Origin: Candidatus Udaeobacter sp.
GTDB lineage: Bacteria; Patescibacteriota; Patescibacteriia; Magasanikbacterales; GWA2-37-8
Assembly (NCBI GenBank): GCA_035473115.1
Contig: DATION010000007.1
Span: 41,734-105,733 of the forward strand
Direction: 5' to 3'
Length of the DNA stretch: 64,000 nt
A program made the position numbers and the translations under genes. This document shows, piece after piece, positions 28,713-47,599 of the stretch; the first letter of the stretch is position 1; each line of letters starts with the position of its first letter. Below the pieces are notes generated by a model. That model did not search any database and was not told where the DNA came from. It was given only the letters and a program-made list of their open reading frames with translations.

Positions 28713-29312
28713 ATGTCAGCAGATCAGGGAAGGTCTGGTTTATCAAAAGAGCAAAAGATAGGCGTAATTTTACTATCTATTTTTTCCGTATTTGCGATTG
28801 GTTTAGGTATTTTGCAAATTAGAAATACCATGTATGCTCCGTTTGCTTTAAATAATAACGTTCCGCCACTAGCTAAAGACGATATAAGTAGCAATGAAAC
28901 TTTAATGTATCGTGATACTGATAAAGACGGTTTAAATGATTTTGATGAACTTTATGTTTACTCTACCAGTCCATATTTGGCAGATACTGATTCCGATGGA
29001 ATTAGCGATAAAGCTGAAGTAGATAGCGGGACTAATCCTCTCTGTCCGGAAGGACAAAGCTGTGCTGAAGTGGGAGCCAACGCCGACGCTGTGCCGGGTA
29101 ATGCTTCTATGACTGCCAGCAGTTCGGTGTTAGGAATTGGTTCTGCGCCGCAGGATCTAGATAAAACTTTAAACGATCCGGCTCAAGTTCGAAAAATTTT
29201 AGCTACTTCCGGATTAGATCCTAAAGTTTTAGAACAGACAACAGATGCAGATTTAATGAAAATGGTAAAAGAAATTTTAAGTTCTGCCAGTTCTACATCT
29301 AAACCTCAATAG
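28713..29312 (+). CDS. Membrane-anchored calcium-binding protein with thrombospondin-type-3-like Asp-rich repeats
   Basis: N-terminal TM helix; repeats DTDKDGLNDFDE and DTDSDGISDKAEVD; stop lies 2 nt before the start of the giant gene. Confidence 0.55.
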   Translation: MSADQGRSGLSKEQKIGVILLSIFSVFAIGLGILQIRNTMYAPFALNNNVPPLAKDDISSNETLMYRDTDKDGLNDFDELYVYSTSPYLADTDSDGISDKAEVDSGTNPLCPEGQSCAEVGANADAVPGNASMTASSSVLGIGSAPQDLDKTLNDPAQVRKILATSGLDPKVLEQTTDADLMKMVKEILSSASSTSKPQ

Positions 29313-29314
29313 TT

Positions 29315-32300
29315 ATGCAAAAATTTAATAAATTTGCCCTTAAAATTTTATTGCTCATATTTACTTTTGTAACTATAGCCGGTTCTTTGTCTTTTGTTCA
29401 GCCAGCCCAAGCAATTCCAGTAGAAGTAGTTGCCGACGCGCCTAGTACTATGGATAAAGTACTAGATCAGATCGCGTTATTTTTAAAAACCGCTACGGTA
29501 AATATAGCTGTGCAGTCCTTCGCTTATTTTATGCGCCGGGTATCTTATGATTCAGCGGTTTGGTTAGCTTCCGGCGGCAAAGGTGAAACTCCATTTGCCC
29601 ATACCAAAACTTTTGGCAATTATATTTCCGATGTAGCTGACAATGCTGCCGGAGTAGCTATAGAACAATTAGGTAAACCTTATGGTTTAAATTTATGTAA
29701 AATTCCTGACCCAAAAATTGATTTAGCTATGCGTATTGGGTTGAACTATCAGTTTTTAAGTCAAACAGTAGTTAAGCCGACTTGTACCTGGCAAAGCTTT
29801 CAAAAAGATGTTTTAAATGCCGATAATTGGAAGAGCCAGTTTGGCAGCGTTGATGACGTCGCCAAAAAATTTAATGTTGCTTTTTCTGTAGACCAAAGCG
29901 ATATTGGTATTTTGTTAAGTGCCACAGAAAAAATTGATAATATAGTAGCCCAACAGACAACTGCCGAAACACTGCAAAGACAGGAAGGTCAAGGTGTCAA
30001 AGATAAGAAGACTTTGATTTCTGATAATATTTCTACAAACGGTAACTTGATCGCTCATGATATACAATCCTTAACCCCTTCTGAGCAGCAAAAAAAAGCT
30101 GAACAAGGTTTTTGGTCCACAGTTGGTACAGGACTAACGGGGGCAATCAGTGGAGCTGGTTCGTTGTTTTTAAATACTCTGCTTAATAAAATGGTGGAGA
30201 ATTACAGAAATAAAGGAATGTTTCCTTTTGGGGCTTGTATTGGCGACAGCGGAGATCCTAGCTGCAAAGGAGTACAAAATAATCTTCTTAATGCCGAAGG
30301 CCAAATAAGCCAAGGTGGGCGCCAGGGCGCGCAAGCGTTATTCGCCGATTTTCTTACTCCGCCTAATGTTCAAATTGATCGCTATGATATTTTGGGTAGT
30401 TTTTCCAGTTGTCCGCCAACCTCTCCTGGTCCGGAAAATTGTGTGGTTGATAGCGGTTTGGCTCAAGCGGCTCAGGAAACTAGTGTTGGCAAGCCAATTA
30501 CTATCGCTGACGCGTTGGCCAAAAATTGGCTCCATGGCGAATGGAAGTTACTTTCTCCGGAACGCAGCGCTGATCAAACAGATGTAAATTGTTACCAGCG
30601 AGCTTATTGTTATGCCAATATTGCCAAGCTGCGTAAATCTAGAATTTTGCCTTTAGGTTTTGAAATTGCCGCTTTAAACAGCAATCCGGATACTCCTTGG
30701 ACTTTAAAACAAGTTGTTGACGGCTTTAATGATTGTAATTTCATCAAAGATGCTAATGGTAATGTGGTAGGCGTAGATAATGATCCAATTAATAAACCAT
30801 TTTGCCATCTGATTGATCCAAACTGGGTAGTAAAAGCTCCGGCTTTGAAATGTAACTTTTTAGCGTTTGGCGCCACGCCATTTTTTAGAGGCACACCCAA
30901 TCGCGCTCAAGAATGCGCTGATCTCAGTACCTGTGTAGCTTATGATAAAAATGGCAATTGTTCTAACCAAGGTTATTGTACTCGCGAACGCAATGTTTGG
31001 AAGATAGATGCTGCTAAATGCGATTCTCAATTTCGTACCTGTCAATCTTTCCAAGACAGCACCGGTAAAGATGTCAGTTATCTTTATCGTACGCTTGATA
31101 CTGCTTATTGTAATCAAGACAATGTCGGTTGCGCGGAGTATAGTCTGAAACAAGATAACAATGGCAGCTGGACTAATTATGCAAAAAATGATTTAAATAG
31201 CGCTGGTGAAAATTCAGCTATATATTTGAATAATAAAATTTCCACCAATTGTTCTGCTAACTCTGATGGCTGCGCGTCTTTTCAGGTAGCCAGCACTTCG
31301 GATAAACTTTATTTACGTCAGGCTCCATATTATTTACAGTGTTATGACACAAACCCAAGTACGCTGGCAATAGACTGGCCTCAAACAAACTCTGATCTGG
31401 CCAAATTACCGACCAAATCAGCTTGCAATAATTTTTCTCAAGCCTGTATTCCGGATGAAGTAAATTGTAATAGTTACAACCCAGTCAGTTATGTGGGAAC
31501 TGCGATTCCTGGCAAGTTTACGCCAGCTACAGTTGTAGAGAATCAGATAGTTTGGAATGATCAATGTGATAAAAGATGTGTTGGTTATTCAGCTTATCGA
31601 GAAATACCAAGTAATTATTCTGATGGTCAGGCAGTCAGTTATATTATTCCTTCTTCCGGTTCAAAATGCAGCGCCATTGATGAAGGCTGTACAAGCTTTA
31701 CCAATCTTAGTGCCACAGTTGGCGGTTTAGAAAAAGTAGAACACTTTTCTTATTTGCGACCTTGTATTTTGCCAGATACGACCAAGCAGAAAAACTTTTA
31801 TACTTACGAAGGTTCGGCTGTCGGCGGATATCAGTTAAAAGGTTTTGTCTTAGAAAAAAATTCTGACGGCAGCCCTAAATATTTTTATCGAACTAACGAA
31901 GATTTAGTTGGCTATGATTCAGTTTGCAGTGAGTCTTTGTATAAGCAAGGTTTGGCTAGTCCGGATTGCCGCCAATTTAATGACGATAAAGGTGCGGTAT
32001 ATTATAAATTATTATCAAAAACTATTGCTGTTTCTCAGTCTTGTACGCCGTATCGCTTAAATGACACTGAACTTCGTCCGGTAAATTTATCACAGGCTGA
32101 TTGTCTGACACAAAAAGGAAACTGGGATAGTGCCGCTGGCAAATGCAGCGTCTGTTTCCAAAACGGCGAATATCGCGACGGACAATGTTTTTATTCCGGT
32201 CTGCCTGGTGATGTGCAAAATACCGCCGGCATCAGTAAAACTTGCGCTGCGGAAGTAAACAGCTGTCGAGCCTACAAAGGCAATGCGGGCAATAATGTCA

Positions 32301-35300
32301 AAAATATTTTTAATAATAATTTTGAAGAAACCCCGGCAGCTATGGCTCTAAAAGATTGGGGACCGGCAGCCAATATCTCTGTATCTTTAGAATCTACTCA
32401 TGCGGGCGAACATTCTTTGTCTTATAACGGCACAGCCGCGGTCTATAAAAATCTATCTTTAACTCCAAGCAAAAGTTATGACATAACTTTTTGGGCTAAA
32501 GGCAGCGTTGGAGCTAAGGCGACTGTTATTTTGCAAAATGACAGTGTTGTCACTTTGGGTGACGCTAGCGTAGGTGACGTTTGGCAATTTTATCACTTTG
32601 GTCCGGTAGAACTGGGCGGAACAGCTACCAGCACTCAGCTTAAGTTTTCGATCAACGGACAGTTGTTTATAGATAATGTTAGCCTAAAAGAAGTTACTGA
32701 TTATACTTATTTAGTTAAAAATACCTTAAAAGTTAATCCGGTTTGTGACAGCAATTTAGATGATAATTTACCGGGCGAAGCGCTGGGTTGTTCGGCTTAC
32801 AAAACTCCGGATGACAAACCAGCTTACTTAACTAAGTTTACTTCTCTTTGCCGAGAAAAAGCTATCGGTTGTACAGCTCTATACGATACGCGTAAAACTC
32901 CGGATGAACCTGGTCCGCGCGCTTATAATGTTTGGTTCTCCGGAGAAGGCGGTACTAGTGTTGCCAAAACTATTGGCGGTCAAAATTATAGTTGCCAAGT
33001 TCCGGTCGGCCAAATTGGCTGTTACGTTAATACAGTTGGCGCTACTTTAAGTACAATTACTGCTGCTGGCGGAGAGGTTGTTACTTCCACAATTTATGTT
33101 CAGCCAGACACACCTTTATCATCACCGATATATTTGGTTGCCAATCAAGAAGCTACTTGTAACGCAGTTGATTTAGGCTGTGTATCTGCTGGCAGATTGG
33201 TACAGACTCCAACCGGAGCAACTTATGAAAATATTCTTATAAAAAATGATCCGGCTTTGTACGATACTACCCTTTGTCAGAAAGAAGCGGTTGGCTGTAA
33301 TACTTACACCTCGGCCAATGGCGCTTTGTACTTTAAAGATCCAGCTACTATCGGACAAAAAATTTGCGCTTACAGAGAAAATGTTTTCCTTAACGGCTCA
33401 AATTATAGCGGCTGGTTCTGGAAAAATGTTGGCAAATGTTCAGCGAGCGGTAATTTATGTACGACCGATAAAGATTGTGGCAGCAGCGGCGGCACTTGCG
33501 CTGGTTTAGACGAGCAACCATGTTATCCAAATTATCTACAGACGGGTAATAATTATGGCCTGTGGTCGTACGGTGTAACCAGTTCATATAATAATTTTGT
33601 AGGTGAATGTCCTTCAACACAAAGCGGCTGTACCGAATTTATTGATCATAATGATAATAATAAAGTCTATGATTTAATTAATGATGATCGAATGAAAGCA
33701 TTGCAAAGCGGCTGCAATGGACAGATTAGTGAAAAATCTGGCTGTATCTTGTTTGATAAAACAGATTTGCCAAATAAATTATGGAATACTGCCCAGTCCT
33801 ACGCCAATAGCGTCAAATTAAATAATAGTCTAGTTGGGCCGGTGGCCAGCAATTCCGGAGATCCTAATGATGCTAATATAATTTTGAAAGTAGATCGGGA
33901 CAGAGAATGCGGTGAATGGCTGCAATGTCGATCATCACATCGCGTATTTGATTCTCAAACCGGAAATTATAAAGAAATCTGTGATGCTATTGGCAGGTGT
34001 AATAAGAGTCCGGAATCAGCCGAAAAAGGCGATATTACCAACTGTGCCAACTGGGTCAGTTCGCAAGAATTAGTTAATCAGGTTTTAACCGACGATGCTT
34101 ATCGTAACCGAAACACGGATTGGACCGGTCAAGAGTTTAGTGGTTACAGTATTTTGAATTATTATCCAGTAGAAGAACTATCAGAAGTAAATTTTGGTGG
34201 TAATTCCGCGACCGATCAACAGTGGAGGTTGGCAAAAAAAGTTCCATGCGGCGGCGGATCTAACTGTGCTTCCAGTGTTTTCACCGAAGATTTTGCTTGT
34301 AACACGACCGGCTTAGCTTGCGGACGAGGCAATGCTGGAATTTGCCAAAACCATATTTGTTTGTCTAACCCTAATGGAACTACTGCCGATGTTACTCATC
34401 AATCGATCGGTCAATCTTGCCGCGCCTATCCGGAAGAAACTTCTCCATTCCCTAATTCCGAACCAATTGGCAACTCCTCAGTATATGGATCTGTAAATTT
34501 ATGCAATGAAACTGCCGGTTTTATTACCGACAAAACCAAAGCGGCGGCTTGTGATTGTAATTACACCAAGATTAATTATGGTGATAGCTTTACCAAGTAT
34601 TGGGATTTTAATAACCCAAATAGCAATGGTATTCTGAAACCGGATGGAACTTTGGCCAAAGGAATAGTTAGTGGTATCTGTTCCGGCGGAGTTAGCGCCG
34701 GACTAGTATGCGGTACAGACAGTGATTGTACTGGCGGCAGCTGTCAGAAATTAGGCAAGCAGGCTCGCCTGATCGGCTGGCACGGCTATTGTATTGAGCC
34801 GGATATTTCTAGGCCGTTAAATGCGGAACCGAATAATTTTGCTTGTTTAACCTGGTTCCCGGTTGATACTATTATGGGCTCTCCGGACATTAATAGTCAG
34901 CACGTAGAAGCTGGTTTCCAGGCATCAAGCGCTGGTGGAAAATATTATTGTTTGGACGCGCAAGGAAATCAGCAATTTGACTCCGCCGCTCAGCAAAATA
35001 ATTATGATAAACTTTTAGGTACAAAAACTATTGCTCGTCCCGGTAGTGTAAATAACAGCTGTACTGATACTAGTGGCCCTTGCTCAAGTTGTGTTAGCAA
35101 TGGCTGTTTTACCAATCCTTTTACCAGAGAAAAAAGAGTCATCGGTAATCTTTCCTCACAAAATATTTTCTTAGATGGTATTGATTATATTAAGATAGTC
35201 ACTAAGAGTGGAGATAATAACTGGTTGGGCAACAGAACTTTTTATATTAGAAATGGTTTAAAAACAAAATATAATGGCCCGCAGTGGAGTGTGGTCGGCA

Positions 35301-37009: not shown

Positions 37010-37023
37010 AAATAACTAAATAA

Positions 37024-37052
37024 AAAATCTCGCTAGTATTGGCGAGATTTTT
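37024..37052. terminator. Bidirectional rho-independent terminator after the giant gene
   Basis: aatctcgc-tagtattg-gcgagatt perfect hairpin flanked by A- and T-runs. Confidence 0.7.
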
Positions 37053-37162
37053 TATTCTACTCAATAGAAGATTTTCTTCTGCTAAGTGGATGTGTGCGCT
37101 ACTGATTTCTCAGCAGCGCACGGGTTGATGGTGGAGGGTGGATGTGGAAGGAACGAGGGGGT

Positions 37163-37660
37163 CTAGTTGGCATTTTGGAAGCAGGTGAGAGTCGTATCTT
37201 GACTCACCACCATCACCAGTTTGTTGACGAGATTATCGTCACTCCTGGTGATTGTCACCTGACTCATCTCCTTGGCTCCGCTACCGGCGATGCTCAAAGA
37301 GCAAATGCCGTTGTTAGACGACGTCAACGTGACATCGTAGTTCCCGCTCCAGTTGGAGCAGGTCCATTGTCTCGTCATCATCCAGCTGTAGCTGGCACAT
37401 GGATTGGCTTGGGGTGCATCAGGTGCACCGGCGTCGGGGGGCGTCATCGCTGAGCCCGATCCGGAGCCGGTCATCACGCTGCCATTGCCGTCGTCGTCAT
37501 CGCCGCTGGTCGTGCTGTCGGTAGCACAGCCGCTGCTGAATGCCATGGCACAGATGCCGAGGATCAGCACTCCGATCGAGACCACACGTGCCCATGTGTA
37601 GTAGTTGTGGATCTCTTCGGTGGTCTGGTTGCTCGTGCTGTAACCGTTCGGGTTCTTCAT
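37163..37660 (-). CDS. Hypothetical lipoprotein in a GC-rich patch
   Basis: Strong SD GGAGGA 4 nt before the ATG (MKNPNG...); TM/signal then AFSSGC lipobox; Asp/Gly/Ser-rich; ~55% GC. Confidence 0.5.
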   Translation of the reverse strand: MKNPNGYSTSNQTTEEIHNYYTWARVVSIGVLILGICAMAFSSGCATDSTTSGDDDDGNGSVMTGSGSGSAMTPPDAGAPDAPQANPCASYSWMMTRQWTCSNWSGNYDVTLTSSNNGICSLSIAGSGAKEMSQVTITRSDDNLVNKLVMVVSQDTTLTCFQNAN

Positions 37661-37715
37661 CGTATCCTCCTGAGTTTGTGTGCCGGTTGGCACGTTGGTT
37701 GCTATGTCGTTGGTA

Positions 37716-37857
37716 TTCGAGCTTGAATCTAATTAGCACTTTTGCTAAGCAAACTTAAGCTCGAATATCTTGTTTTTTCCACCATCTTATTGGCTAATCT
37801 TAGAGAAATCTCTAATCTTAGCACTTTTGTAAAGAGCGGTTGTCAGTAACTGACAAC
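37716..37857. promoter_or_regulatory. Divergent control region with operator-like palindromes between the lipoprotein gene and the T4SS-like cluster
   Basis: ~52-bp near-perfect palindrome centred on TTAGCAnnnnTGCTAA (37733-37748), a second ttagcacttttg copy at 37818, and the perfect 19-bp palindrome gttgtcagtaactgacaac (37839-37857). Confidence 0.4.
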
Positions 37858-41000: not shown

Positions 41001-41293
41001 AAATTATTACTAACTTATTATCGCCGCTTACTTCTACCAGATTAGATAGTGTCGACGAATACGTCAGAAGCGGTTTGGCTGGAATATTAAAAAATTCAAC
41101 TGATAAAGCATTGGCAGAGTTAAAAAATAGTCTAAGTCAGCAAGGAGTTGCCAGAGATAAGGGAGCTTTGGCTACCTTGCTAAGCGATGCTTTGCGTAAG
41201 GCAGGGGATGATATTAAAAAAGAAAACAAAGAATTGATAGAAAATTGGATTAAAGAATTCGGTCCAAGCGTAAAAGCCAAAAAAACAAAATAA
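38051..41293 (+). CDS. VirB6/TrbL-like polytopic membrane protein with a ~700-aa coiled-coil/Lys-Glu-rich C-terminal extension
   Basis: ~7 TM helices in the first ~330 aa (the Gram-positive T4SS VirB6-like pattern), then a long hydrophilic tail. Confidence 0.6.
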   Translation: MLVILNKLNSYFSKFWLLLKPRRRLGLVSFVILTSLLLVVWFVSTSTAQAGVIDGIRDLFTSLIFLVAGLFIKLTFFLLKFVIEIAGYNSFIDSSAVIVGWVMVRDITNMFFVVILLLISFGTILGLEQYEYKKLLVKLLIAAIVVNFSRIICGIIIDIAQVVMITFVNGIAATAGGNLVSMFGVDKIFKLTGSAQGIAQQGSTFLAAVAAIGFSSIMMMTMLTFLFLLLARMVALWILIVLSPFAFVLNVLPQTQKYAGQWWDEFGGNVVAGPIVAFFLWLAFVTVGNGRINNEISAGSSQPLTQEGAENSPETSTGITDIMSWAQMANFAIAIGMLLTGAKVAQQLGAAGGSLMSKAGDFGKRVAMVASGLTAARWAGGKALAAGKATGKFALMKAPLIGGEAWQRRGRRIRAEASGRYYDWVGKRTIKAGKIAKQLAVNEKGKYIIKGTAENSTPELDKNGKPILDEHGEIKYKDIKQSGPMDWFRRMKARAQLAVGPGFSTYNDEYLTDMETTVKYKKERLEHMVSTSSLRVGLEKRKAEEMLHGYEETGKEIKSGRTARMQARRQEINEIIENGVDVDSKLRKKGLNSNEIFEAKEFYQRTRKAESGKATAKVTSEETNAIKNLKEAEVLEGYMASKGAAQESRTAALKAETKQIDDKLNAEREIKELEAIRELIREGGFGHEKQKDITASKAMLEQITFDINQDKDLALAIARDQYLKAQYRDSEALNEQNVLAKQAKERIEKQSVGTDYPRSKARVASLLNQKNDAFAELEAAKLAGDSDKIKIATKKFEQSEKSLSEMQIGNWEQHGSIGAGNMAEVVSKIDPELLKGVSIDPADTKSVRKVQAAIFTSLTGDKVDASGAGVNAAVEKFNKMHGARSQAMLEQLRLALDKAAGQGVFSVAGVLQTELGSDGRISTKVADVDNADEKIRDRVVSYIKSRREAARSAAKITTISAGLDGTVDINSEGKAVVESPESIKIITNLLSPLTSTRLDSVDEYVRSGLAGILKNSTDKALAELKNSLSQQGVARDKGALATLLSDALRKAGDDIKKENKELIENWIKEFGPSVKAKKTK

Positions 41294-41303: not shown

Positions 41304-42302
41304 ATGAAATTGTCGGTTAGAGAAATGACAATGGAAGCGTTTGAAAATCTTGAAAAAGAATTAAGAGCTTCGCATATTGATATTTCAGCCATGCAAGAAA
41401 CATGGCAATCTTTGGATGCGTACTTTAGAAATTCCTCATTGGCTGAAGATGAAAGATTTAGATGGACTTATTTTAGAATTTATACTGAACTAACCTGGAA
41501 AATGTTTGGCGCTCAGAACCCGGATTTTATAGTCAATATGGCTATAGCTAGGCAAATTCCGATGGCGCTGCAGCTTGATTTTAATGTTTTTGAAAGCATT
41601 GTTAGTTATCTCGGATCACAAGCTTTGGTTGAAGCGGAAGTACAAAGCCTGTATCTGAAAATTCAGAAAGCATTTTTGGAATCAGAGGCTGTTATTGGGG
41701 TTTGGCAAGGAGAGAATATTACCGTCTCAGAAGTGATCAAAGAAATTAATTCCGTTTATAACAGCGGTGATTCTTTGGAACAAGCTGATTTTGAGAGCCG
41801 GTTATTGCAAATAATGTTTTCTAATGAAGAAGCGGAAAAATACTCCACGGTTGATCCGGAAGATGGTAAAGGTAGATTTTTAGATCTAGTCAGTTTTTTT
41901 CAAACTTTTGCCCAAGAAGATATCTCATATATTGTTGATAGTTTGTTAAATCCGGAAAAATATGAAAATAATGCCGCTGCTCAAGAGGAACTTTCACCAG
42001 AGTCCGAAATTGAAGAAACTTCTGAGTCTGCAGCTGTCGCGCCGCAACCAGCTTCTTCTCGGCTAGAATCAAAATCAGCTTTTGAGCAGACTTCGGTAGT
42101 AGAGCCGCCAGCCCGACTTGCTATGGCGCAGATTAAATCCCAGATTGAATCGCAATTTAAAAAAGATACAGAAGGGAACTTTGTTGATTTAGAAGGAGTT
42201 ATGGCCAAGTTAAGCGAGCTGGCTGATAAGTATAATGATCCAAAAATTGTCGAAGCAATATATTTTGATGAGCAAGACAATAAATTTAAATGGAATATAT
42301 AA
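41304..42302 (+). CDS. Hypothetical acidic cytoplasmic protein within the T4SS-like cluster
   Basis: 332 aa, no TM, no recognisable motif. Confidence 0.5.
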   Translation: MKLSVREMTMEAFENLEKELRASHIDISAMQETWQSLDAYFRNSSLAEDERFRWTYFRIYTELTWKMFGAQNPDFIVNMAIARQIPMALQLDFNVFESIVSYLGSQALVEAEVQSLYLKIQKAFLESEAVIGVWQGENITVSEVIKEINSVYNSGDSLEQADFESRLLQIMFSNEEAEKYSTVDPEDGKGRFLDLVSFFQTFAQEDISYIVDSLLNPEKYENNAAAQEELSPESEIEETSESAAVAPQPASSRLESKSAFEQTSVVEPPARLAMAQIKSQIESQFKKDTEGNFVDLEGVMAKLSELADKYNDPKIVEAIYFDEQDNKFKWNI

Positions 42303-42306: not shown

Positions 42307-43305
42307 ATGTCTGAGCCAATGGTTACAATAAAAAAACCGGATGGAACTTTTGCCAAAGTTTCTCTTAGCGAATTTAAAAAAGCACAGTCTGCACAGACAA
42401 AACCAAAAGAAGCTGCGAAGCCAAAGATGCCGGCTAGGAGTGGTTCTTTATTAGAAGAAAAATTAAAGCTAACAAATTCAACTCCTTTATTTAGTCCAAA
42501 GCGCGAAAAACAAGTTGAAGAAGTGATTTCTAAGTTAGGTTTTTCCGTCGCTTTAGAAATTTTGGGCAGATTAAAGAGTTTGGTTTTAGCTAAATTAAAA
42601 GATATAAAAAGTGAAGAAGAGATTCGTGAATTAATGTCTCGTTCCATAAAAAACGGCGGTTTAGGATTAACAGCTCAGCAAGTAGAAAAAATTATCAATC
42701 TTTGCGCAGAAGTGGATAGCCAAGAAGATGAGAAAATTTCTCAGACACCAGTTTTAAAAGGCAAGCCAGCGAATTTGGCCTTAATGGTAGAACCGCCCGA
42801 ATTGCCGGCTCTTATTGACGCTTTGCCCGCTGCGGCAAATAAAATGAAAATGCCTGAGCAAAAACAAACAAGACCTTTTGCCGCAGATTCCGATCCGATT
42901 TCTAATTTAATTAATAAAAGTATCGCCAGTGAGCCGGTTTTTAAGATTGATACTCGTCCTGCTGTAAAGCAATCCATGCAAGATATTACCGCTACTAGCG
43001 TGGAAATGGGGCCGGTAGAAGAGATTAGATCTGTGACTCTAGCTGATTTTAGAAGATTTTCCAGTAAGCCGGAAGAGGCGGCCAAAAGATTGCAGCAAAA
43101 AATGTTTAATCTGCAGGATGAATCTTTTGTTTGGTATTTGGAGGCTTTGGCTGGGTATCATGCCTCACCTTTATATACCGAATACGTTCAGGCAGTTTGT
43201 CAGTCTTTGGCTGAAAGAAAGTCGTTAGCCAATGTACTTACTATCAAAAATGGTATAAAATTAAACGAGGTAATAGCTCTGATTGAGATGGAGAAAAGTC
43301 TGTAA
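42307..43305 (+). CDS. Hypothetical protein within the T4SS-like cluster
   Basis: The ATG at 42307 lies just after the previous stop and is preferred over the track start at 42235; no known domain. Confidence 0.5.
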   Translation: MSEPMVTIKKPDGTFAKVSLSEFKKAQSAQTKPKEAAKPKMPARSGSLLEEKLKLTNSTPLFSPKREKQVEEVISKLGFSVALEILGRLKSLVLAKLKDIKSEEEIRELMSRSIKNGGLGLTAQQVEKIINLCAEVDSQEDEKISQTPVLKGKPANLALMVEPPELPALIDALPAAANKMKMPEQKQTRPFAADSDPISNLINKSIASEPVFKIDTRPAVKQSMQDITATSVEMGPVEEIRSVTLADFRRFSSKPEEAAKRLQQKMFNLQDESFVWYLEALAGYHASPLYTEYVQAVCQSLAERKSLANVLTIKNGIKLNEVIALIEMEKSL

Positions 43306-43325: not shown

Positions 43326-43751
43326 ATGGAACAATTTGTTGTCCCACAATTTATAGAAGTAGAAGATAAAATTTTTGGACCAGTAACTACTCGGCAGTTT
43401 CTTATTTTATTGTCTGCCGGTCTAGTTTTGTTTATAATTTTCAAATTAGCGGATGTAGCTTTATTTATTTTTTTAACCGTGCTTATCGGCGGCTCTGCTT
43501 TGGTATTAGCTTTTATCAAGATCAACGGACAGCCTTTTCATTATTTTTTACTGAATATAGTGCAAACAGTTCGCCGGCCTAGCCGCCGTCTTTGGTATAA
43601 AAGTTTTAGTAAAATTGAATTAGCAGAATCAATTAAATCTGGAAAAGTAGAAATAGTAGAGGTGGCTAGAGAAATTCCCAGAATGTCTTATAGCCGAATA
43701 CGGGATTTGTCTTTGGTGGTAAACACAGGAGGGTACTACAAGCCGGAATAA
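43326..43751 (+). CDS. PrgI/VirB3-like small membrane protein
   Basis: 141 aa with two adjacent TM helices (FLILLSAGLVLFIIF / VALFIFLTVLIGGSALVLAFI), immediately upstream of VirB4, as in Gram-positive T4SS. Confidence 0.55.
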   Translation: MEQFVVPQFIEVEDKIFGPVTTRQFLILLSAGLVLFIIFKLADVALFIFLTVLIGGSALVLAFIKINGQPFHYFLLNIVQTVRRPSRRLWYKSFSKIELAESIKSGKVEIVEVAREIPRMSYSRIRDLSLVVNTGGYYKPE

Positions 43752-43760: not shown

Positions 43761-44438
43761 ATGGAAGAAAAACCTAAACAAAAGAAAATAAAATTTCCCA
43801 GCACTCAGCAGCACCTGCCCTTTGCGGAAATAAAATTTGATACAGTAATAATGAAAGACGGAACTTTACGCGCCGTGCTTATGGTTTCCAGTATAAATTT
43901 TGCTCTCAAAAATGAAGATGAGCAAAATGCCATTGTTTCATCCTATGTATCTTTTTTAAACGGTATTGATTTTCCTTTACAAATAGCTATTCAGTCTCGG
44001 CAGCTTTATATCAAGCCTTATTTAGAAAAATTATTAAAATTAGAGCGGGAACAGACAAATGAATTATTGCGGGTTCAGATAGCCGATTATCGTTCTTTTG
44101 TATCCGAACTTGTTAGTCTGGGCAAAATTATGAGCAAACAATTTTTTGTGATTGTGCCTTATGATCCGCTGTCCAACAAAAAACGAGGTTTTTGGTCAAG
44201 GATTGGTGAAGTCATTAACCCGGCTGTGACGGTGAAACTCAAAGACGAAAGATTCCAGCAGCGTAAACATGACTTGGATATGCGAGTCAGGCAAATTGAA
44301 TCTGGGTTAACTAGTATGAACTTGGAAGTAGTTCGTCTGGACACGCAATCGCTTATTGAATTATTTTATTCCACCTATAATCCGGATATTGCCTTTAGCG
44401 AGTTTTTAGCTCCGGTTAATCAATTACAAGTGGAGTAA
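43761..44438 (+). CDS. virB4: VirB4-like ATPase, N-terminal domain (separated from the C-terminal ATPase by two in-frame stops)
   Basis: VirB4 N-domain pattern (LPFAEIKFDTVIMKDGTLRAVLMVSSINF...); same reading frame as the next ORF, with TAA codons at 44439 and 44448. Confidence 0.6.
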   Translation: MEEKPKQKKIKFPSTQQHLPFAEIKFDTVIMKDGTLRAVLMVSSINFALKNEDEQNAIVSSYVSFLNGIDFPLQIAIQSRQLYIKPYLEKLLKLEREQTNELLRVQIADYRSFVSELVSLGKIMSKQFFVIVPYDPLSNKKRGFWSRIGEVINPAVTVKLKDERFQQRKHDLDMRVRQIESGLTSMNLEVVRLDTQSLIELFYSTYNPDIAFSEFLAPVNQLQVE

Positions 44439-44456: not shown

Positions 44457-46325
44457 ATGGCTTTTAAACCAAAATTTGCGACTGGTCCAATGAAAAGAAA
44501 GGAAGACCTAGACGCTAAAAAATCCGCAGTGACCAAAAAAACTACTGAAGAATTAGTGACTCTTGAAGAAGAGAGAGTTTATCGTGAAGGCACAGTTTCC
44601 ATTAAAGATTTATTGGCGCCGTCGGCTTTTAATATTGAATCTAATTATTTAAAATTAGGCGACATATTTTGCCGGACAATTTTTGTGGTGACTTATCCGC
44701 GCTATATTTCTGTCGGTTGGAGTTCTCCCATTTTAAATTTATCCATCACTATGGATATAGGGATGTTCTTTTATCCGGTAAAATCCACGATAATTTTGAA
44801 GCAGTTAAGAAACAAAGTCGGAGCTTTGGAAGCTCAGCTTAATGCTGACTCAGAAAAAGGCGCGCCGCGAGATCCAACCCGCCAAACCGCTTTACGTGAT
44901 ATTGAACAATTACGCGATGATCTTACCCAAGGTACGGAACGGTTTTTCCAGTTTGCTTTTTACGTCACTGTTTATGCGAAGACTAAAGAAGAATTAGATC
45001 AAACATCGGAAGATGTAGAAAATATATTTGGTTCCAAGCTTATCAACAGCCGCAAGGTTTTGTATCAAGCAGAACAAGGCTTTAATTCTACTTTGCCTTT
45101 GGCTAACGATGAATTACTGATAGCTTTTAACCTTAATTCATCACCGATTGCAGCATCCTTTCCTTTTATTTCAGCCGAACTGACTTCAGATGATGGTATT
45201 TTGTACGGAGTTAATCGCCACAATAACAGCTTGATTCTTTTTGATCGGTTTTCTTTGCAGAATGCGAATATGGCTGTGTTTGCTACTTCCGGTGCTGGTA
45301 AAAGTTATGCTATTAAGTTAGAAATTTTGCGAACCATGATGATGGGTTCGGATATTATTGTGATTGATCCGGAAATGGAATATAAGCATTTGGCCGATGC
45401 CGTAGGCGGAACCTATATAAATATTTCCCTTTCTTCCGAAAGTAAAGTTAATCCGTTTGATTTACCGCGGCCTACCGGTGGCGAAGAATTTTCCACCGAA
45501 GATGTTATTCGCGGAGCGGTTATAACGGTAAAGGGTTTGTTGCGTATTATGCTTGGTAATTTAACTACTGAACAGGATTCAATAATAGATCGGGCTTTAA
45601 TAGAAACTTATGCCAAGAAAGATATTACGCCCGAAGCGGACCTAAGTGTCGTGCAGCCGCCGATAATTCAAGATCTACAAGAAATTTTGGAAGGTATGGA
45701 AGGTTCCGGAGATTTGGTTTTAAGGCTACAAAAATATACTCAAGGCACATTTAGCGGCTTGTTTAATTCCCCGACCAATGTTGATATGAAGAATCAACTA
45801 GTGGTTTTCAGCGTGCGTGATTTAGAAGATGAACTTCGGCCAATTGCTATTTATGCTATAATTAATTATATTTGGAATGTTGTCCGTTCCGAACGCAAAA
45901 AACGCATCTTGGTAATTGATGAGGCCTGGTGGCTGATGCAGCATGAAGACAGCGCCAGATTTATTTTTGCCTTAGTCAAACGCGCCCGTAAATATTACCT
46001 CGGTGTCACTACCATTACTCAAGATGTTAATGACTTCTTGCAATCTCAGTATGGTCAGGCGATTGTTACCAATTCCGCTTTGCAATTATTATTGCGTCAA
46101 TCTCCGGCAGCTATTGATCTGGTGCAGAAGGTCTTTATTTTAACCGAAGGTGAAAAGTATTTGTTATTAGAAAGCGGAGTCGGAGAGGGGATTTTCTTTG
46201 CCGGCAATAAGCACGCTGCTATTAAAGTGGTCGCTTCTTATACGGAAGACCAATTGGTAACCACCAATCCGGAACAGCTTTTGGAAATAGAAAGATCAAA
46301 AAAAGAATTTGAAAAACAAACCTAG
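44457..46325 (+). CDS. virB4: VirB4/TrbE/ConE-like type IV secretion ATPase, C-terminal ATPase domain
   Basis: Walker A FATSGAGKS; Walker B RILVIDEAWWLM (VirB4 hhhhDEAW signature); 622 aa. Confidence 0.8.
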   Translation: MAFKPKFATGPMKRKEDLDAKKSAVTKKTTEELVTLEEERVYREGTVSIKDLLAPSAFNIESNYLKLGDIFCRTIFVVTYPRYISVGWSSPILNLSITMDIGMFFYPVKSTIILKQLRNKVGALEAQLNADSEKGAPRDPTRQTALRDIEQLRDDLTQGTERFFQFAFYVTVYAKTKEELDQTSEDVENIFGSKLINSRKVLYQAEQGFNSTLPLANDELLIAFNLNSSPIAASFPFISAELTSDDGILYGVNRHNNSLILFDRFSLQNANMAVFATSGAGKSYAIKLEILRTMMMGSDIIVIDPEMEYKHLADAVGGTYINISLSSESKVNPFDLPRPTGGEEFSTEDVIRGAVITVKGLLRIMLGNLTTEQDSIIDRALIETYAKKDITPEADLSVVQPPIIQDLQEILEGMEGSGDLVLRLQKYTQGTFSGLFNSPTNVDMKNQLVVFSVRDLEDELRPIAIYAIINYIWNVVRSERKKRILVIDEAWWLMQHEDSARFIFALVKRARKYYLGVTTITQDVNDFLQSQYGQAIVTNSALQLLLRQSPAAIDLVQKVFILTEGEKYLLLESGVGEGIFFAGNKHAAIKVVASYTEDQLVTTNPEQLLEIERSKKEFEKQT

Positions 46326-46343
46326 TAATTTATATTTTAGTAT

Positions 46344-46943
46344 ATGTCACTTCGCGCCCGTATTTTTATCATAGTTAGCATCCTGGTATTTTTTGTTTTG
46401 GTAGTCAGTATTTTTTTGATAGTCAGACAAAAAAAAATAAACGCTCCAGTTCCTCAAGTTGGAGTATCAGGCAATAGCTCAAGCGCCCAGAATAATGGGC
46501 AGCCAAGCAATCCCAATGCGGTGGGCGAGCAAGCGCCAGCCGGAGTATCAATTAAAAAACCAACTTCAATTGAAGTTGAAAAGAACGCGGTAGAGCAACT
46601 GGCCAAAGTTTTTATTGAACGTTACGGCACTTTTTCAACCGATAATAACTTTCAAAATATTAAGGATGTTTCCACTTTGGTTACTCAGTCTCTATGGTCA
46701 AAAATTAGCGCTTCTATTTCTTCTAAACCTGCAACCGGTTCTGCACAAAGTTTTGATGGTGTGACAACTAAAGTTATTAACGCTGATTTAACTGCTTGGT
46801 CAGATAGTAAAGCTTCGGTAGAGTTAAAATTAACTCGTACAGAAGAAAAGAACGGTTCAGTTAGCACTCGTTATCAAAATGTTTCTTTAGAATTGGTAAA
46901 AACAGACTCTCTTTGGTTGGTGGACAAGGTAACCTGGCATTAA
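46344..46943 (+). CDS. Bitopic membrane protein, putative VirB8-like (NTF2-fold) T4SS component
   Basis: N-terminal TM (IFIIVSILVFFVLVVSIFLIV) plus a ~130-aa C-terminal domain; position and topology match VirB8-like proteins (inference). Confidence 0.35.
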   Translation: MSLRARIFIIVSILVFFVLVVSIFLIVRQKKINAPVPQVGVSGNSSSAQNNGQPSNPNAVGEQAPAGVSIKKPTSIEVEKNAVEQLAKVFIERYGTFSTDNNFQNIKDVSTLVTQSLWSKISASISSKPATGSAQSFDGVTTKVINADLTAWSDSKASVELKLTRTEEKNGSVSTRYQNVSLELVKTDSLWLVDKVTWH

Positions 46944-47599
46944 TTATGCTGTCTAAGTTGGTAAGTATTATAAAGGATATATTTTTTCCTCGATTTTGTG
47001 TTAGTTGTGGACAAGAAGGCAACTGGTTTTGCAATAGTTGTTTCCTTATTAATAAAAATTTATTTCAGAAGAACAGCTTAACTGTTCAAGCTTTAGACCC
47101 TGCTTGTTTAGACGGAATAACAGCACTGTTTGCTTATGGAGAAAATGATATTTCAAAACTTATCAAGCTGTTGAAGTATAATTTTTTATTGGAGATAACC
47201 GATGTTTTTACTAAAATTTTTAACAATATTTATTTAAATAATGCTTGGCAAGATTTTGTTATTATTCCGGTGCCGCTGCACTTGCGCCGAGAGCGCGAAC
47301 GAGGTTTTAATCAAGCAGAAATTATTGCCAACCTGTTTGCAAAAAAGCTTGGGTTAAATATAAATAAAAATTTACGTCGGTCAATTTATACTGCGCAGCA
47401 GGCAAGACTAACCGGCCAACAAAGACAGGTAAATCTAAAAGGAGCTTTTAGTTGGAGTAGTAATATTAAAAATATTCCGGAAAAAGTTTTATTGGTAGAC
47501 GATGTTTTTACTACCGGAGCGACCATGCAAGAGTGCGCTAAAGTTTTAAAAAGTAACGGTGCTAAAATTGTCTGGGGACTAGCTTTGGCAAGAGGTTAA
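46913..47599 (+). CDS. comFC: Competence protein ComFC (phosphoribosyltransferase-type)
   Basis: N-terminal CxxC..CxxC zinc finger (FCVSCG...CNSCF) and PRTase motif VLLVDDVFTTGATM. Confidence 0.85.
   Translation: MVGGQGNLALIMLSKLVSIIKDIFFPRFCVSCGQEGNWFCNSCFLINKNLFQKNSLTVQALDPACLDGITALFAYGENDISKLIKLLKYNFLLEITDVFTKIFNNIYLNNAWQDFVIIPVPLHLRRERERGFNQAEIIANLFAKKLGLNINKNLRRSIYTAQQARLTGQQRQVNLKGAFSWSSNIKNIPEKVLLVDDVFTTGATMQECAKVLKSNGAKIVWGLALARG

What the first reader, a model, noticed from the sequence alone, without database searches (positions are those of the whole stretch)
28713..47599. Minimal T4SS-like machine (VirB6-like, PrgI/VirB3-like, split VirB4, VirB8-like) ending in comFC and preceded by a Ca-binding protein and a 2564-aa Cys-rich surface giant
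One co-directional 19-kb block encodes a membrane-anchored TSP3-repeat Ca-binding protein, a giant secreted Cys-rich protein, a VirB6-like channel protein with a 700-aa coiled-coil tail, two proteins with no recognisable family, a PrgI/VirB3-like protein, a VirB4 ATPase, a VirB8-like bitopic protein and ComFC. No relaxase, VirD4 coupling protein or pilin is present, so this is not a conjugative element. The ComFC adjacency, plus comEC elsewhere in the window, suggests a ComB-like T4SS-mediated DNA-uptake route, or a contact/adhesion apparatus that uses the giant protein as a surface ligand. The combination of a giant adhesin-like protein, a Ca-binding protein, a minimal T4SS and comFC is not a described system as far as I know.
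Basis: partly seen in the sequence, partly recalled or inferred. Interest (0 to 1): 0.85.

Follow-up and report, generated by a model that had tools for sequence, protein, structure and literature searches.

The report
Patescibacteria chromosomal T4SS with surface module
This block is the relaxase-less type IV secretion system already described in ultrasmall Patescibacteria (here a Magasanikbacteria/ABY1 genome); what is new is that a giant disulfide-rich sugar-binding surface protein, its calcium-binding membrane partner and several unnamed proteins stay linked to it through genome rearrangements.

Summary

The window is housekeeping chromosome of a Magasanikbacteria (ABY1 class) bacterium, with no relaxase, coupling protein or pilin. 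This is the "Patescibacteria-clade" T4SS published in 2023-2025. The 2025 survey already reports TrsD, the lack of relaxase, VirB8 hits concentrated in ABY1, and comF next to virB4 in ABY1. The claim "not a described system" therefore fails for the core.

The block is also not one co-directional operon. A bidirectional terminator and a minus-strand lipoprotein gene separate TSP3-giant from the VirB6-to-ComF operon.

Possibly new points:
- The same gene set occurs in three permutations, which supports a functional link of TSP3 and the giant protein (108 Cys, one CBM_4_9 domain) with the T4SS.
- One unnamed protein (U332b) founds a family of about 1,900 sequence clusters.
- The intervening lipoprotein gene is a conserved GC3 outlier.

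Function (host contact; cargo DNA or protein) is inferred.

The parts
28713..29312 (+). TSP3 protein: N-terminally membrane-anchored, acidic (pI 4.2), with two thrombospondin-type-3 Ca-binding repeats. Its stop lies 2 nt before the giant gene.
   Evidence: Pfam TSP3_bac 7.7e-7. TM helix at residues 16-34 and pI. Orthologue sits between KsgA and the giant in type I/II loci and directly before U332b in type III loci.
29315..37009 (+). Giant secreted Cys-rich protein (2564 aa): signal peptide, 108 Cys, one CBM_4_9-like carbohydrate-binding module at about residues 997-1133, no C-terminal anchor.
   Evidence: composition and motifs; at least 172 full-length homologues of roughly 1,800-3,130 aa (mostly 2,500-3,100), nearly all named ones from Magasanikbacteria/Patescibacteria; about 90 invariant Cys; CBM_4_9 in 15 of 18 orthologues; PDB CBM hits at 2.6e-4.
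37018..37057 (.). Bidirectional hairpin terminator (16-bp stem flanked by A/T runs) shared by the giant gene and the convergent lipoprotein gene.
37163..37693 (-). Small lipoprotein gene on the opposite strand (lipobox ..SSGC, D/G-rich linker, Cys-rich C-terminal part). It is an extreme GC3 outlier, conserved in position but hypervariable in sequence.
   Evidence: GC3 is 0.73 against 0.26-0.43 for all other confidently assigned genes in the window (three unannotated ORFs at 56.2-57.5 kb reach 0.51-0.52). Lipobox ORFs occur in 31 of 46 related loci, with GC3 0.65-0.86.
37694..38050 (.). AT-rich (GC 0.33) divergent control region with back-to-back promoter-like sites: + strand 37840-37867 (TTGTCA-16-TATATT) and - strand 37891-37863.
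   Evidence: These are consensus matches only.
38051..41293 (+). Extended VirB6-like polytopic membrane protein (1080 aa). It has a signal-like N-terminus, a conserved TM domain of about 350 aa, a basic juxtamembrane stretch (pI 10.7, implying a cytoplasmic tail), long low-confidence helices, and a confident C-terminal helical domain (residues 700-1075).
41304..42302 (+). U332a: soluble, very acidic (pI 4.3, charge -31) protein of unknown family. It travels with VirB6 in rearranged loci.
   Evidence: no family. (B6-U332a-giant order in L041, L056, L058, L071, L076)..
42307..43305 (+). U332b: soluble protein of unknown family with a conserved N-terminal KKxDGT motif and C-terminal GPVEEI..DFRRLS..SPLY motifs. 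It always lies directly upstream of PrgI.
   Evidence: no Pfam, NCBIfam or PDB match; 1,879 50%-identity cluster representatives at E<=1e-3. (context).
43326..43751 (+). PrgI/VirB3-like small membrane protein (141 aa).
   Evidence: Pfam PrgI 9.1e-11, 42.6 bits against a cutoff of 27. 51-87% identity in relatives.
43761..44438 (+). TrsD/TraC-like protein (225 aa): a free-standing counterpart of the VirB4 N-terminal domain.
   Evidence: NCBIfam TrsD 1.4e-7; CD1110 VirB4 profile positions 6-78. Precomputed PF26593 TraC-like.
44457..46325 (+). VirB4 ATPase (622 aa), MPF_FATA-like. Walker A is ATSGAGKS and Walker B is ILVIDE.
   Evidence: NCBIfam conju_CD1110 6.5e-109 (365 bits against 325), Pfam P-loop_TraG 2.5e-27. 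Walker motifs. Median 81% identity across 55 loci.
46344..46943 (+). VirB8-like bitopic protein (199 aa): N-terminal TM helix, disordered linker, NTF2-like domain.
46913..47599 (+). ComF(C): zinc-ribbon plus phosphoribosyltransferase-like protein. Its start overlaps the VirB8-like gene by 31 nt (TTG at 46913) or follows it by 2 nt (ATG at 46946).
   Evidence: TIGR00201 comF 4.4e-31. CxxC at residues 29 and 40 and the VLLVDDVFTTGAT loop. It follows the VirB8-like gene in 36 of 37 related loci that have enough sequence.

Best explanation
The block is the chromosomally fixed, relaxase-less 'Patescibacteria-clade' type IV secretion system, derived from the monoderm MPF_FATA conjugation machinery. 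The host is a Magasanikbacteria (GTDB class ABY1) bacterium. The block has two adjacent transcription units.

Unit 2 (38.05-47.6 kb) encodes the machine.
- An extended VirB6, PrgI/VirB3 and a bitopic VirB8-like protein form the translocon through the single membrane and the wall.
- TrsD plus VirB4 supply ATP energy at its cytoplasmic face.
- The basic cytoplasmic tail and C-terminal helical domain of VirB6, with the two soluble unnamed proteins (U332a acidic, U332b), probably act as the substrate-docking platform in place of a coupling protein. This step is inferred.
- ComF, translationally coupled to VirB8, would handle single-stranded nucleic acid at the channel. This step is also inferred.

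Unit 1 (28.7-37.0 kb) encodes a Sec-exported, disulfide-stabilised giant protein with a carbohydrate-binding module, and a Ca-binding membrane-anchored partner.
- I infer that these form the surface structure that binds host cell-wall glycan and holds the pilus-less channel against the host cell.
- That would fill the role taken by PrgB-type adhesins or VirB2 pili in other systems.

Overall role: an essential host-interaction conduit of an obligate epibiont, as shown genetically only for Saccharibacteria. The cargo (host DNA or nucleotides in, or proteins out) is unknown.

Shown here: gene identities, folds, chromosomal context, conservation and linkage. Inferred: topology, docking role, adhesin role, cargo.
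For: Identity of the core:
- PrgI passes the Pfam cutoff, and VirB4 passes the NCBIfam CD1110 cutoff.
- TrsD matches the missing VirB4 N-terminus.
- VirB6 is supported by 4 of 40 homologues hitting PF04610, with TrwI the best natural structural hit by two methods.

Taxon and chromosomal nature:
- Nearly all named homologues are Magasanikbacteria or other Patescibacteria.
- The window is housekeeping sequence (IF-2, LeuRS, NusA, YidC, GroEL, RF1, KsgA, SUF) with no relaxase, T4CP, integrase or tRNA.
- The block's GC equals the window mean.

Purifying selection: median identity across about 55 loci is VirB4 81%, TrsD 74% and PrgI 68%. For comparison, KsgA is 61% and SufS 74%.

Operon structure: junctions from VirB6 to ComF are at most 20 nt.

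Linkage of the surface module, seen as three permutations of one gene set:
- Type I: KsgA-TSP3-giant-(lipoprotein)-B6-U332a-U332b-PrgI-TrsD-B4-B8-ComF, in about 39 of 48 loci with full upstream sequence.
- Type II: TSP3-giant and the T4SS on different contigs of one genome (L078).
- Type III: KsgA-TSP3 directly followed by U332b-PrgI-TrsD-B4-B8-ComF, with B6-U332a-giant together elsewhere.

Giant protein: signal peptide, about 90 invariant Cys, and CBM_4_9 in 15 of 18 orthologues.

Literature:
- The T4SS is essential for epibiotic growth of S. epibionticum, where no coupling protein or relaxase is recognisable.
- The survey of the Patescibacteria T4SS covers TrsD, VirB8 in ABY1 and comF in ABY1, and reports that no PrgB-like adhesin was found.
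- Extended VirB6 proteins are a known class.
Against: - There are no functional data for any ABY1 organism. Essentiality is extrapolated from a different class (Saccharimonadia), whose T4SS has VirB2-like pilins that are absent here.
- The VirB6 assignment rests on weak scores for the window protein itself: no Pfam hit, Foldseek E 0.07-0.15, model pLDDT about 70 in the TM domain.
- The giant/TSP3 unit is transcriptionally separate (terminator, opposite-strand gene). It is unlinked from the T4SS in at least one genome, and it always sits next to the housekeeping gene KsgA. Its association could therefore be inherited gene order.
- The two halves of the type III arrangement were not shown to lie in the same genome.
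- A T4CP or relaxase elsewhere in the genome cannot be excluded from a 64-kb window. The 2025 survey found many distant T4CP homologues in Patescibacteria.
- In Saccharibacteria, ComEC, ComF and DprA are dispensable while the T4SS is essential. This argues against an obligatory T4SS-Com functional unit.
Confidence: 0.6

Rival explanations
1. DNA-uptake machine. The T4SS works inward, like H. pylori ComB or the archaeal Ced system. It pulls host or environmental DNA to the membrane and hands single strands to the operon-encoded ComF (then on to ComEC, DprA and RecA). This would supply nucleotides or genes to a cell that cannot make nucleotides.
For: - comF is the last gene of the operon. It overlaps or abuts the VirB8-like gene and follows it in 36 of 37 related loci.
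- The 2025 survey notes comF, recG and radA near virB4 in ABY1 and suggests functional coordination.
- ComFC binds ssDNA and acts in membrane transport of DNA in H. pylori, a species whose uptake uses a T4SS (PMC9005727).
- No relaxase or T4CP for export is present.
- ComEC is present in the window at 13968-15497.
Against: - ComB function depends on an outer-membrane core (VirB7/9/10) that a monoderm neither needs nor encodes, and none is present here.
- CedB similarity is trivial: 54 bits against a cutoff of 700.
- In the only genetically tested Patescibacterium, ComEC, ComF and DprA are dispensable while the T4SS is essential, and competence there works with type IV pili.
- comEC lies 23 kb away, in an unrelated neighbourhood.
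- ComF could simply be an operon passenger.
Confidence: 0.25
2. The TSP3 protein and the giant Cys-rich protein are an independent surface or cell-envelope module (adhesin, S-layer-like coat or glycan scavenger). They merely neighbour the T4SS by inherited gene order and are not part of it.
For: - They form a separate transcription unit, ended by a strong bidirectional terminator, with an opposite-strand gene in between.
- In GCA_016193335 and the L083/L084 lineage, the order Sua5-(DUF4015, absent in L083/L084)-KsgA-TSP3-giant persists without any adjacent T4SS.
- The pair is always tied to KsgA.
- The giant protein has a Sec signal peptide, so it does not need the T4SS for export.
Against: - Adjacency to VirB6 is kept in about 39 of 48 loci, while the downstream flank (SUF genes) is lost outside the closest 9 relatives.
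- In type III loci the giant gene left KsgA/TSP3 and stayed with VirB6-U332a, whereas TSP3 became the immediate upstream neighbour (3-nt gap) of U332b-PrgI-TrsD-VirB4. Two different rearrangements thus preserve contacts between the two modules.
- The giant family is of constant length with about 90 invariant Cys. This looks more like a structural component than a fast-evolving adhesin.
Confidence: 0.35
3. Decaying or domesticated integrative conjugative element: a remnant of an MPF_FATA ICE that lost its relaxase and coupling protein and has no current function.
For: - VirB4 is closest to conjugative CD1110/ICE-type ATPases, and the VirB3-TrsD-VirB4 gene order is the conjugative one.
- The relaxase and T4CP are missing.
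Against: - All ORFs are intact and tightly packed.
- VirB4, TrsD and PrgI are at least as conserved as housekeeping genes across 55 genomes.
- The same chromosomal position is kept across the lineage.
- GC equals the genome background, and there is no integrase, tRNA or repeat boundary.
- The homologous system is essential in Saccharibacteria.
Confidence: 0.03

Closest known systems
Patescibacteria-clade T4SS (Quinonero-Coronel et al. 2025, PMC12102498; S. epibionticum SEML1_0006-0019, Wang et al. 2023, PMC10633639)
   Same: - Chromosomal and relaxase-less, with an MPF_FATA-like VirB4 preceded by TrsD and PrgI/VirB3, and VirB6 nearby.
- KsgA is frequently in the neighbourhood.
- In class ABY1 specifically, VirB8 homologues are detectable and comF lies in the locus.
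   Different: - The Saccharibacteria system has an essential array of VirB2-like pilins and peptidase/lysozyme genes. Neither is present here.
- The published survey reports that no PrgB-like adhesin was detected, and it left genes with no profile match unnamed ('grey' in its synteny figure).
- A text search of that paper found no mention of giant or large proteins. I found no description there of the giant Cys-rich protein, the TSP3 partner, U332a/U332b or the antisense lipoprotein gene.
Gram-positive conjugative T4SS of the pGO1/pIP501 type (TraC/TrsC-TraD/TrsD-TraE/VirB4, TraH/TraM VirB8-like, TraL VirB6-like)
   Same: - VirB3-like, TrsD and VirB4 occur in the same order (own knowledge of pIP501; TrsD and CD1110 hits).
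- It has monoderm architecture without VirB7/9/10.
   Different: - There is no relaxase, T4CP, VirB1-type hydrolase or LPXTG adhesin.
- It sits in a chromosomal housekeeping context.
- VirB6 is extended by about 700 residues.
- ComF is in the operon.
H. pylori ComB T4SS plus ComFC, and the archaeal Ced DNA-import system
   Same: A VirB4-family ATPase system not coupled to a relaxase and genetically associated with DNA-uptake functions (ComF).
   Different: - ComB needs the VirB7/9/10 outer-membrane core, and Ced needs CedA/CedB. Neither is matched here (CedB 54 bits against a cutoff of 700).
- The direction of transport here is unknown.
Extended VirB6 proteins (Rickettsiales Rvh VirB6 paralogues, F-type TraG; reviewed in PMC12857230)
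   Same: At least five hydrophobic helices plus a large C-proximal hydrophilic domain.
   Different: - The tail is sequence-unrelated and variable even within Magasanikbacteria: most homologues align only over the first ~400 residues.
- The tail ends in a helical-repeat-like domain with no natural structural homologue.
Large surface exoproteins of Patescibacteria (FhaB-domain proteins of Patescibacterium danicum, PMC11809585)
   Same: Very large secreted proteins in ABY1 genomes, proposed to mediate host adhesion.
   Different: - Those are FhaB/DUF2341 repeat proteins without full-length homologues.
- The giant here is a constant-length, Cys-rich orthologous family with at least 172 full-length members and a single CBM_4_9 domain.

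Membership tests
Type IV secretion system (VirB4-based), MPF_FATA / Patescibacteria clade | VirB4-family ATPase with Walker A and Walker B motifs | tested here: met
   NCBIfam conju_CD1110 365 bits against a cutoff of 325; Pfam P-loop_TraG 2.5e-27; motifs ATSGAGKS and ILVIDE.
Type IV secretion system (VirB4-based), MPF_FATA / Patescibacteria clade | VirB3/PrgI-like small membrane protein next to VirB4 | tested here: met
   Pfam PrgI 42.6 bits against a cutoff of 27.
Type IV secretion system (VirB4-based), MPF_FATA / Patescibacteria clade | TrsD (free-standing VirB4 N-terminal domain) as in the pGO1 subclass and most Patescibacteria | tested here: met
   NCBIfam TrsD 1.4e-7 (below the curated cutoff); CD1110 profile positions 6-78; precomputed PF26593 TraC-like. 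VirB4 itself starts at profile position 156.
Type IV secretion system (VirB4-based), MPF_FATA / Patescibacteria clade | Polytopic VirB6-family channel protein | tested here: met
Type IV secretion system (VirB4-based), MPF_FATA / Patescibacteria clade | Bitopic VirB8-like NTF2 protein | tested here: met
Type IV secretion system (VirB4-based), MPF_FATA / Patescibacteria clade | VirB4 falls inside the monophyletic Patescibacteria VirB4 clade | not tested
   No phylogeny was built. This is inferred only from the taxonomy of the homologues and from the match of gene content to PMC12102498.
Conjugative element (ICE or plasmid transfer system) | Relaxase and VirD4/TcpA-type coupling protein associated with the T4SS | tested here: not met
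   No such Pfam or NCBIfam hit in any ORF of at least 100 aa in the 64-kb window. The rest of the genome was not available.
ComB-type DNA-uptake T4SS | Outer-membrane core (ComB7/9/10 = VirB7/9/10) with ComB4/6/8 | tested here: not met
   No VirB9 or VirB10-like protein is present. The organism belongs to a monoderm phylum.
Ced DNA-import system | CedB/CedA equivalogs | tested here: not met
   CedB 53.9 bits against a cutoff of 700, covering the P-loop region only.
ComF/ComFC | N-terminal 4-Cys zinc ribbon plus PRT-like domain with a PRPP loop | tested here: met
   TIGR00201 4.4e-31 (108 bits, below the curated cutoff of 233). CVSC-x7-CNSC and VLLVDDVFTTGAT.
Bacterial TSP3 Ca-binding repeat proteins | D-x-D-x-D-G-x-x-D repeat matched by PF18884 | tested here: met
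   29.3 bits against a cutoff of 25. The repeats are DTDKDGLND and DTDSDGISD. Ca binding itself cannot be tested with these tools.
CBM_4_9 carbohydrate-binding module (in the giant protein) | PF02018 match above the gathering score | tested here: inconclusive
   The window protein scores 23.8 bits against a cutoff of 25.9. However, 15 of 18 orthologues match (best 7.6e-8), and the family profile hits CBM structures 2zey and 1gui at about 3e-4.
PrgB/LPXTG-type conjugation adhesin | LPXTG sorting signal and adhesin domains | tested here: not met
   The C-terminus is ...NGKVIVAPE, with no LPXTG motif and no TM helix. There are no adhesin Pfam hits.

The most novel reading that the evidence does not exclude
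The giant disulfide-rich CBM protein, its Ca-binding membrane partner and the hypervariable GC3-rich lipoprotein together form the extracellular host-recognition structure of a pilus-less ABY1 T4SS. With the cytoplasmic VirB6 tail, U332a/U332b and operon-encoded ComF, the machine would work as a contact-dependent importer of host nucleic acid. This would be a 'reverse conjugation' that feeds a nucleotide-auxotrophic epibiont.
Probability: 0.12. Interest if true: 0.8.

Novelty: new member of a known kind. Interest (0 to 1): 0.4.

Why it matters
Patescibacteria make up a large share of bacterial diversity, and their T4SS is the first T4SS shown to be essential for the bacterium that carries it. 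Even so, its cargo, its substrate receptor and its host-contact structure are unknown.

Class ABY1 has no cultured representative. It also lacks the VirB2-like pilins seen in Saccharibacteria.

This locus gives a concrete, conserved candidate list for the missing parts:
- a giant CBM-bearing surface protein with a Ca-binding anchor;
- two soluble proteins, one of which founds a family of about 1,900 sequence clusters;
- an extended VirB6 with a folded cytoplasmic domain;
- ComF, coupled to the operon.

The three natural permutations of the gene set act as a built-in linkage experiment. None of this changes the classification of the system, which is already published.

Tried and rejected
- **Rfam and tRNA scans of the window:** nothing found, so there is no integration-site signature.
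- **Sequence-profile searches of PDB:**
  - VirB6 family: only low-complexity coiled-coil matches.
  - VirB8-like family: no VirB8 hit at sequence level, so the fold search was needed.
  - U332a and U332b: nothing.
- **Pfam and NCBIfam on 37 U332b members:** nothing.
- **U332a and U332b as paralogues:** rejected (hhalign probability 0.5%).
- **VirB2-like pilin search:** a scan for ORFs of 45-170 aa with at least two TM helices outside known genes found none.
- **DGR-like or other repeat of the lipoprotein gene in the window:** none (blastn).
- **Same-genome test for type III:** This remains inferred from complementarity and a shared study of origin.
- **C-terminal VirB6 domain:** its only good structural match is a designed helical repeat protein, so no function is assigned.
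- **ICE-remnant reading:** rejected on conservation and context.
- **Literature searches** for a Cys-rich giant protein linked to a T4SS in Magasanikbacteria or CPR found nothing relevant.

Full report
**1. What is in the sequence**

An independent Logan assembly of SRR9656165 carries the identical genes.

Family searches give the following:
- TSP3_bac repeat in the 199-aa membrane-anchored protein at 28713-29312 (29.3 bits against a cutoff of 25).
- PrgI for the 141-aa protein (42.6 bits against 27).
- P-loop_TraG/DUF87 for the 622-aa protein. This protein also passes the curated NCBIfam cutoff for the CD1110 family of VirB4-like conjugal ATPases (365 bits against 325), but only over profile positions 156-730.
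- The missing N-terminus lies in the preceding 225-aa protein. It matches TrsD (1.4e-7) and CD1110 positions 6-78, and it carries the precomputed PF26593 TraC-like hit.
- The "split VirB4" is therefore the TrsD + VirB4 pair known from the pGO1 subclass of monoderm systems.
- The last gene is a canonical ComF: TIGR00201 4.4e-31, CVSC-x7-CNSC zinc ribbon and a PRPP loop.

**2. The two uncertain T4SS assignments, tested by structure**

*VirB8-like protein (199 aa).*
- At sequence level it has only a sub-threshold VirB8 hit (Pfam 0.016). A family profile finds no VirB8 in PDB.
- An AlphaFold2 model built on 46 homologues gives a TM helix, a disordered linker and a three-helix plus four-strand NTF2 domain at pLDDT 94-98.
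- The Gram-positive VirB8-like proteins PrgL and TraH score 11.6 and TcpC 11.2, ahead of most generic NTF2 enzymes.

*VirB6-like protein (1080 aa).*
- It has no Pfam hit itself. Its family has 309 homologues, of which one is named "type IV secretion system protein" and carries PF04610.
- Four of 40 scanned members match TrbL/VirB6.
- The model has mean pLDDT 71.
- I accept "extended VirB6" with moderate confidence.
- The tail is not just a coiled coil. Residues 351-460 are strongly basic (pI 10.7), which by the positive-inside rule puts the tail in the cytoplasm (inference). Residues 700-1075 form a confident helical-repeat-like domain.

**3. Organism and context**

- The exact proteins are deposited as hypothetical proteins of a MAG labelled Candidatus Udaeobacter.
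- Nearly all named homologues and all 80 related genome loci are Magasanikbacteria or other Patescibacteria, apart from placeholder labels. The Udaeobacter label is almost certainly a binning or labelling error.
- The window is ordinary chromosome: MgtE, peptidase M1, GreA, IF-2, thioredoxin, LeuRS, ComEC, NusA, YidC, GroEL, RF1, Sua5, KsgA upstream, and the SUF system, riboflavin genes and others downstream.
- No relaxase, coupling protein, integrase, tRNA or Rfam family is present. No small two-TM pilin-like ORF is present either.
- The block's GC (0.35-0.41 per gene) equals the window mean of 0.40.

**4. It is not one operon**

- A 16-bp-stem hairpin flanked by A/T runs (37018-37057) ends both the giant gene and a convergent 176-aa lipoprotein gene on the minus strand (37163-37693).
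- The AT-rich 357-nt spacer that follows holds back-to-back promoter-like hexamers, and the VirB6-like gene starts at 38051.
- From VirB6 to ComF every junction is at most 20 nt. ComF overlaps or abuts the VirB8-like gene.
- The TSP3 gene stops 2 nt before the giant gene.
- There are therefore two units: (KsgA?)-TSP3-giant, and VirB6-U332a-U332b-PrgI-TrsD-VirB4-VirB8-ComF.

**5. Comparative evidence**

A tblastn survey of 80 loci shows the order KsgA-TSP3-giant-B6-U332a-U332b-PrgI-TrsD-B4-B8-ComF throughout Magasanikbacteria.
- The giant lies directly upstream of B6 in about 39 of 48 loci that have the full 10 kb upstream.
- ComF follows B8 in 36 of 37 loci with enough sequence.
- The downstream SUF genes are kept only in the nine or ten closest relatives.

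Median identities across these loci:

| Gene | Median identity |
|---|---|
| VirB4 | 81% |
| TrsD | 74% |
| PrgI | 68% |
| SufS | 74% |
| KsgA | 61% |
| B6 | 48% |
| giant | 43% |
| ComF | 42% |
| B8 | 39% |
| U332b | 35% |
| U332a | 33% |

The ATPase module is thus under housekeeping-grade constraint.

Two rearranged states are informative.
- *Type II.* In GCA_016193335 the string Sua5-DUF4015-KsgA-TSP3-giant-(lipoprotein) is followed by AspRS, and the T4SS sits on another contig (L078). L083/L084 show the same pattern.
- *Type III.*
  - KsgA is followed by a TSP3 orthologue (40% identity; profile E 6.5e-64). After a 3-nt gap come U332b-PrgI-TrsD-VirB4-VirB8-ComF, with no VirB6 or giant within 10 kb.
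  - Five other loci show B6-U332a-giant together without VirB4 nearby. That giant is a full-length family member with 102 Cys.
  - The two type III halves are complementary. One of each comes from the same sequencing study, but I could not prove that they share a genome.
- Taken together, TSP3 pairs with the giant (types I, II) or with the ATPase module (type III). The giant pairs with VirB6-U332a (types I, III).
- This argues for one functional set, while type II shows that adjacency is not obligatory.

**6. The accessory proteins**

*The giant protein.*
- It has a signal peptide and no C-terminal anchor or LPXTG motif.
- It has 108 Cys, of which about 90 are invariant among 18 orthologues spanning 34-72% identity.
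- It has enriched C-x5-6-C and [GSNT]Cxx[YF] motifs.
- Its family has at least 172 members, mostly of 2,500-3,100 aa, all unnamed.
- The only recognisable domain is a CBM_4_9 module at about residues 997-1133. It is found in 15 of 18 orthologues, and the family profile hits CBM structures in PDB at about 3e-4.
- A Sec-exported, disulfide-braced, glycan-binding protein of constant size is a plausible host-wall-binding structural element. This is inference.

*U332a and U332b.*
- Both are soluble, and neither has a Pfam, NCBIfam or PDB relative. They are not paralogues.
- U332b nevertheless founds a very large family: 1,879 cluster representatives at E<=1e-3 and 720 at E<=1e-10.
- In every context examined, U332b sits directly before PrgI.

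**7. Comparison with what is known**

- Wang et al. 2023 showed by Tn-seq that an unusual Gram-positive-like T4SS without recognisable coupling protein or relaxase is essential for epibiotic growth of Southlakia epibionticum. ComEC, ComF and DprA are not essential there.
- Quinonero-Coronel et al. 2025 surveyed the phylum. They report:
  - a monophyletic VirB4 clade related to MPF_FATA;
  - TrsD as the most frequent companion;
  - PrgI/VirB3 and VirB6 near virB4, and almost no relaxases;
  - KsgA often nearby;
  - VirB8 homologues "nearly all" in class ABY1;
  - no PrgB-like adhesin detected.
- A 2025 review describes extended VirB6 proteins and the Patescibacteria systems.
- The core of the finding is therefore a further member of a published kind, and the comF adjacency is published as well.
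- I could not find any description of the giant Cys-rich protein, the TSP3 partner, U332a/U332b or the antisense lipoprotein. The library holds only open-access papers.
- The large FhaB-type exoproteins reported in another ABY1 genus are different: they have no full-length homologues and a different domain content.

**8. Mechanism and rivals**

*Best-supported reading (confidence about 0.6).*
- It is a host-contact T4SS of an obligate epibiont.
- The translocon is VirB6/VirB3/VirB8, powered by TrsD+VirB4.
- The VirB6 cytoplasmic domain and U332a/U332b serve as docking parts in place of a T4CP.
- ComF acts at the cytoplasmic face.
- The TSP3-anchored giant CBM protein is the extracellular contact element in a lineage without VirB2 pilins.

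*Rivals.*
- Inward DNA-uptake reading (ComB- or Ced-like), about 0.25. The near-universal comF coupling keeps it alive. The Saccharibacteria genetics, the absence of ComB/Ced-defining parts and the monoderm envelope weaken it.
- Giant/TSP3 as unrelated neighbours, about 0.35. Separate transcription and type II genomes support it. The type III rearrangement argues against it.
- ICE remnant: effectively excluded by conservation and context.

**9. Verdict**

The novelty class is "new member of a known kind". The interest lies in the accessory gene set and its natural permutations, and in an unexplained GC3-rich hypervariable lipoprotein gene embedded in the locus (see the items noticed in passing).

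Noticed in passing
window 37163-37693 (minus strand); equivalents such as L003:9026-9556, L010:7447-7983, L082:18989-19630, L085:18175-18717: The small lipoprotein gene wedged antisense between the giant and VirB6 genes is an extreme codon outlier. Its GC is 0.57 and its GC3 is 0.73, against GC3 0.26-0.43 for every other confidently assigned gene in the 64 kb (three unannotated ORFs at 56.2-57.5 kb reach 0.51-0.52). Positionally equivalent lipobox ORFs exist in 31 of 46 related loci, with GC3 0.65-0.86, and the gap has a 400-nt GC peak averaging 0.63 against a locus mean of 0.42. Yet the proteins barely align between lineages. The sense-strand RNA folds with z = -5.7 (20 shuffles), against -1.7 for the other strand. 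Position and composition are conserved while the sequence diverges fast; this is unexplained.
   Followed up: partly
L089:9213-16011; L041:9842-22594; L082:8274-19630: The same T4SS-associated gene set occurs in three permutations in Magasanikbacteria. Type I is as in the window. In type II, TSP3-giant and the T4SS are on different contigs. In type III, KsgA-TSP3-U332b-PrgI-TrsD-VirB4-VirB8-ComF is in one place and VirB6-U332a-giant in another. Whether both type III halves are in one genome was not proven.
   Followed up: partly
window 42307-43305: The unnamed soluble protein U332b founds a very large unannotated family: 1,879 50%-identity cluster representatives at E<=1e-3 and 720 at E<=1e-10. 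It has invariant KKxDGT and DFRRL/SPLY motifs and lies immediately upstream of PrgI wherever context was seen.
   Followed up: partly
window 13968-16959: ComEC appears split. DUF4131 + Competence domains are in one ORF (13968-15497), and the metallo-beta-lactamase domain that is normally fused to ComEC is in a separate ORF (16099-16959). A class I SAM methyltransferase gene (15466-16071) lies between them.
   Followed up: no
window 10342-13962: The leucyl-tRNA synthetase is 1206 aa. It carries inserted HAD_2 (residues ~380-535) and serine-hydrolase/alpha-beta-hydrolase (~657-818) domains between the editing and anticodon-binding parts.
   Followed up: no
whole window; proteins P0001, P0121, P0241: The source contig (108,916 bp, locus tags VLK22_...) is labelled Candidatus Udaeobacter sp. 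(Verrucomicrobiota) in NCBI, but nearly all named homologues and the synteny are Patescibacteria/Magasanikbacteria. Many related MAGs carry the placeholder label 'uncultured Gammaproteobacteria bacterium'. This is probably a mis-binning or mislabelling.
   Followed up: partly
window 26665-27834: A DUF4015/GHL6 putative glycoside hydrolase with an N-terminal TM helix lies two genes upstream of TSP3, and it stays in the Sua5-DUF4015-KsgA-TSP3 string in relatives (fused to Sua5 in L089). It could be a wall hydrolase standing in for the missing VirB1. This is pure speculation.
   Followed up: no
window 55810-57465 and 1-2000: Two further regions are compositionally unusual. At 55.8-57.5 kb, GC is about 0.45, the overlapping ORFs on both strands have GC3 about 0.5, and no Pfam hit was found (only the 195-aa ORF 56878-57465 was scanned). 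The first 2 kb has GC 0.50. No Rfam or tRNA hit occurs in either.
   Followed up: no
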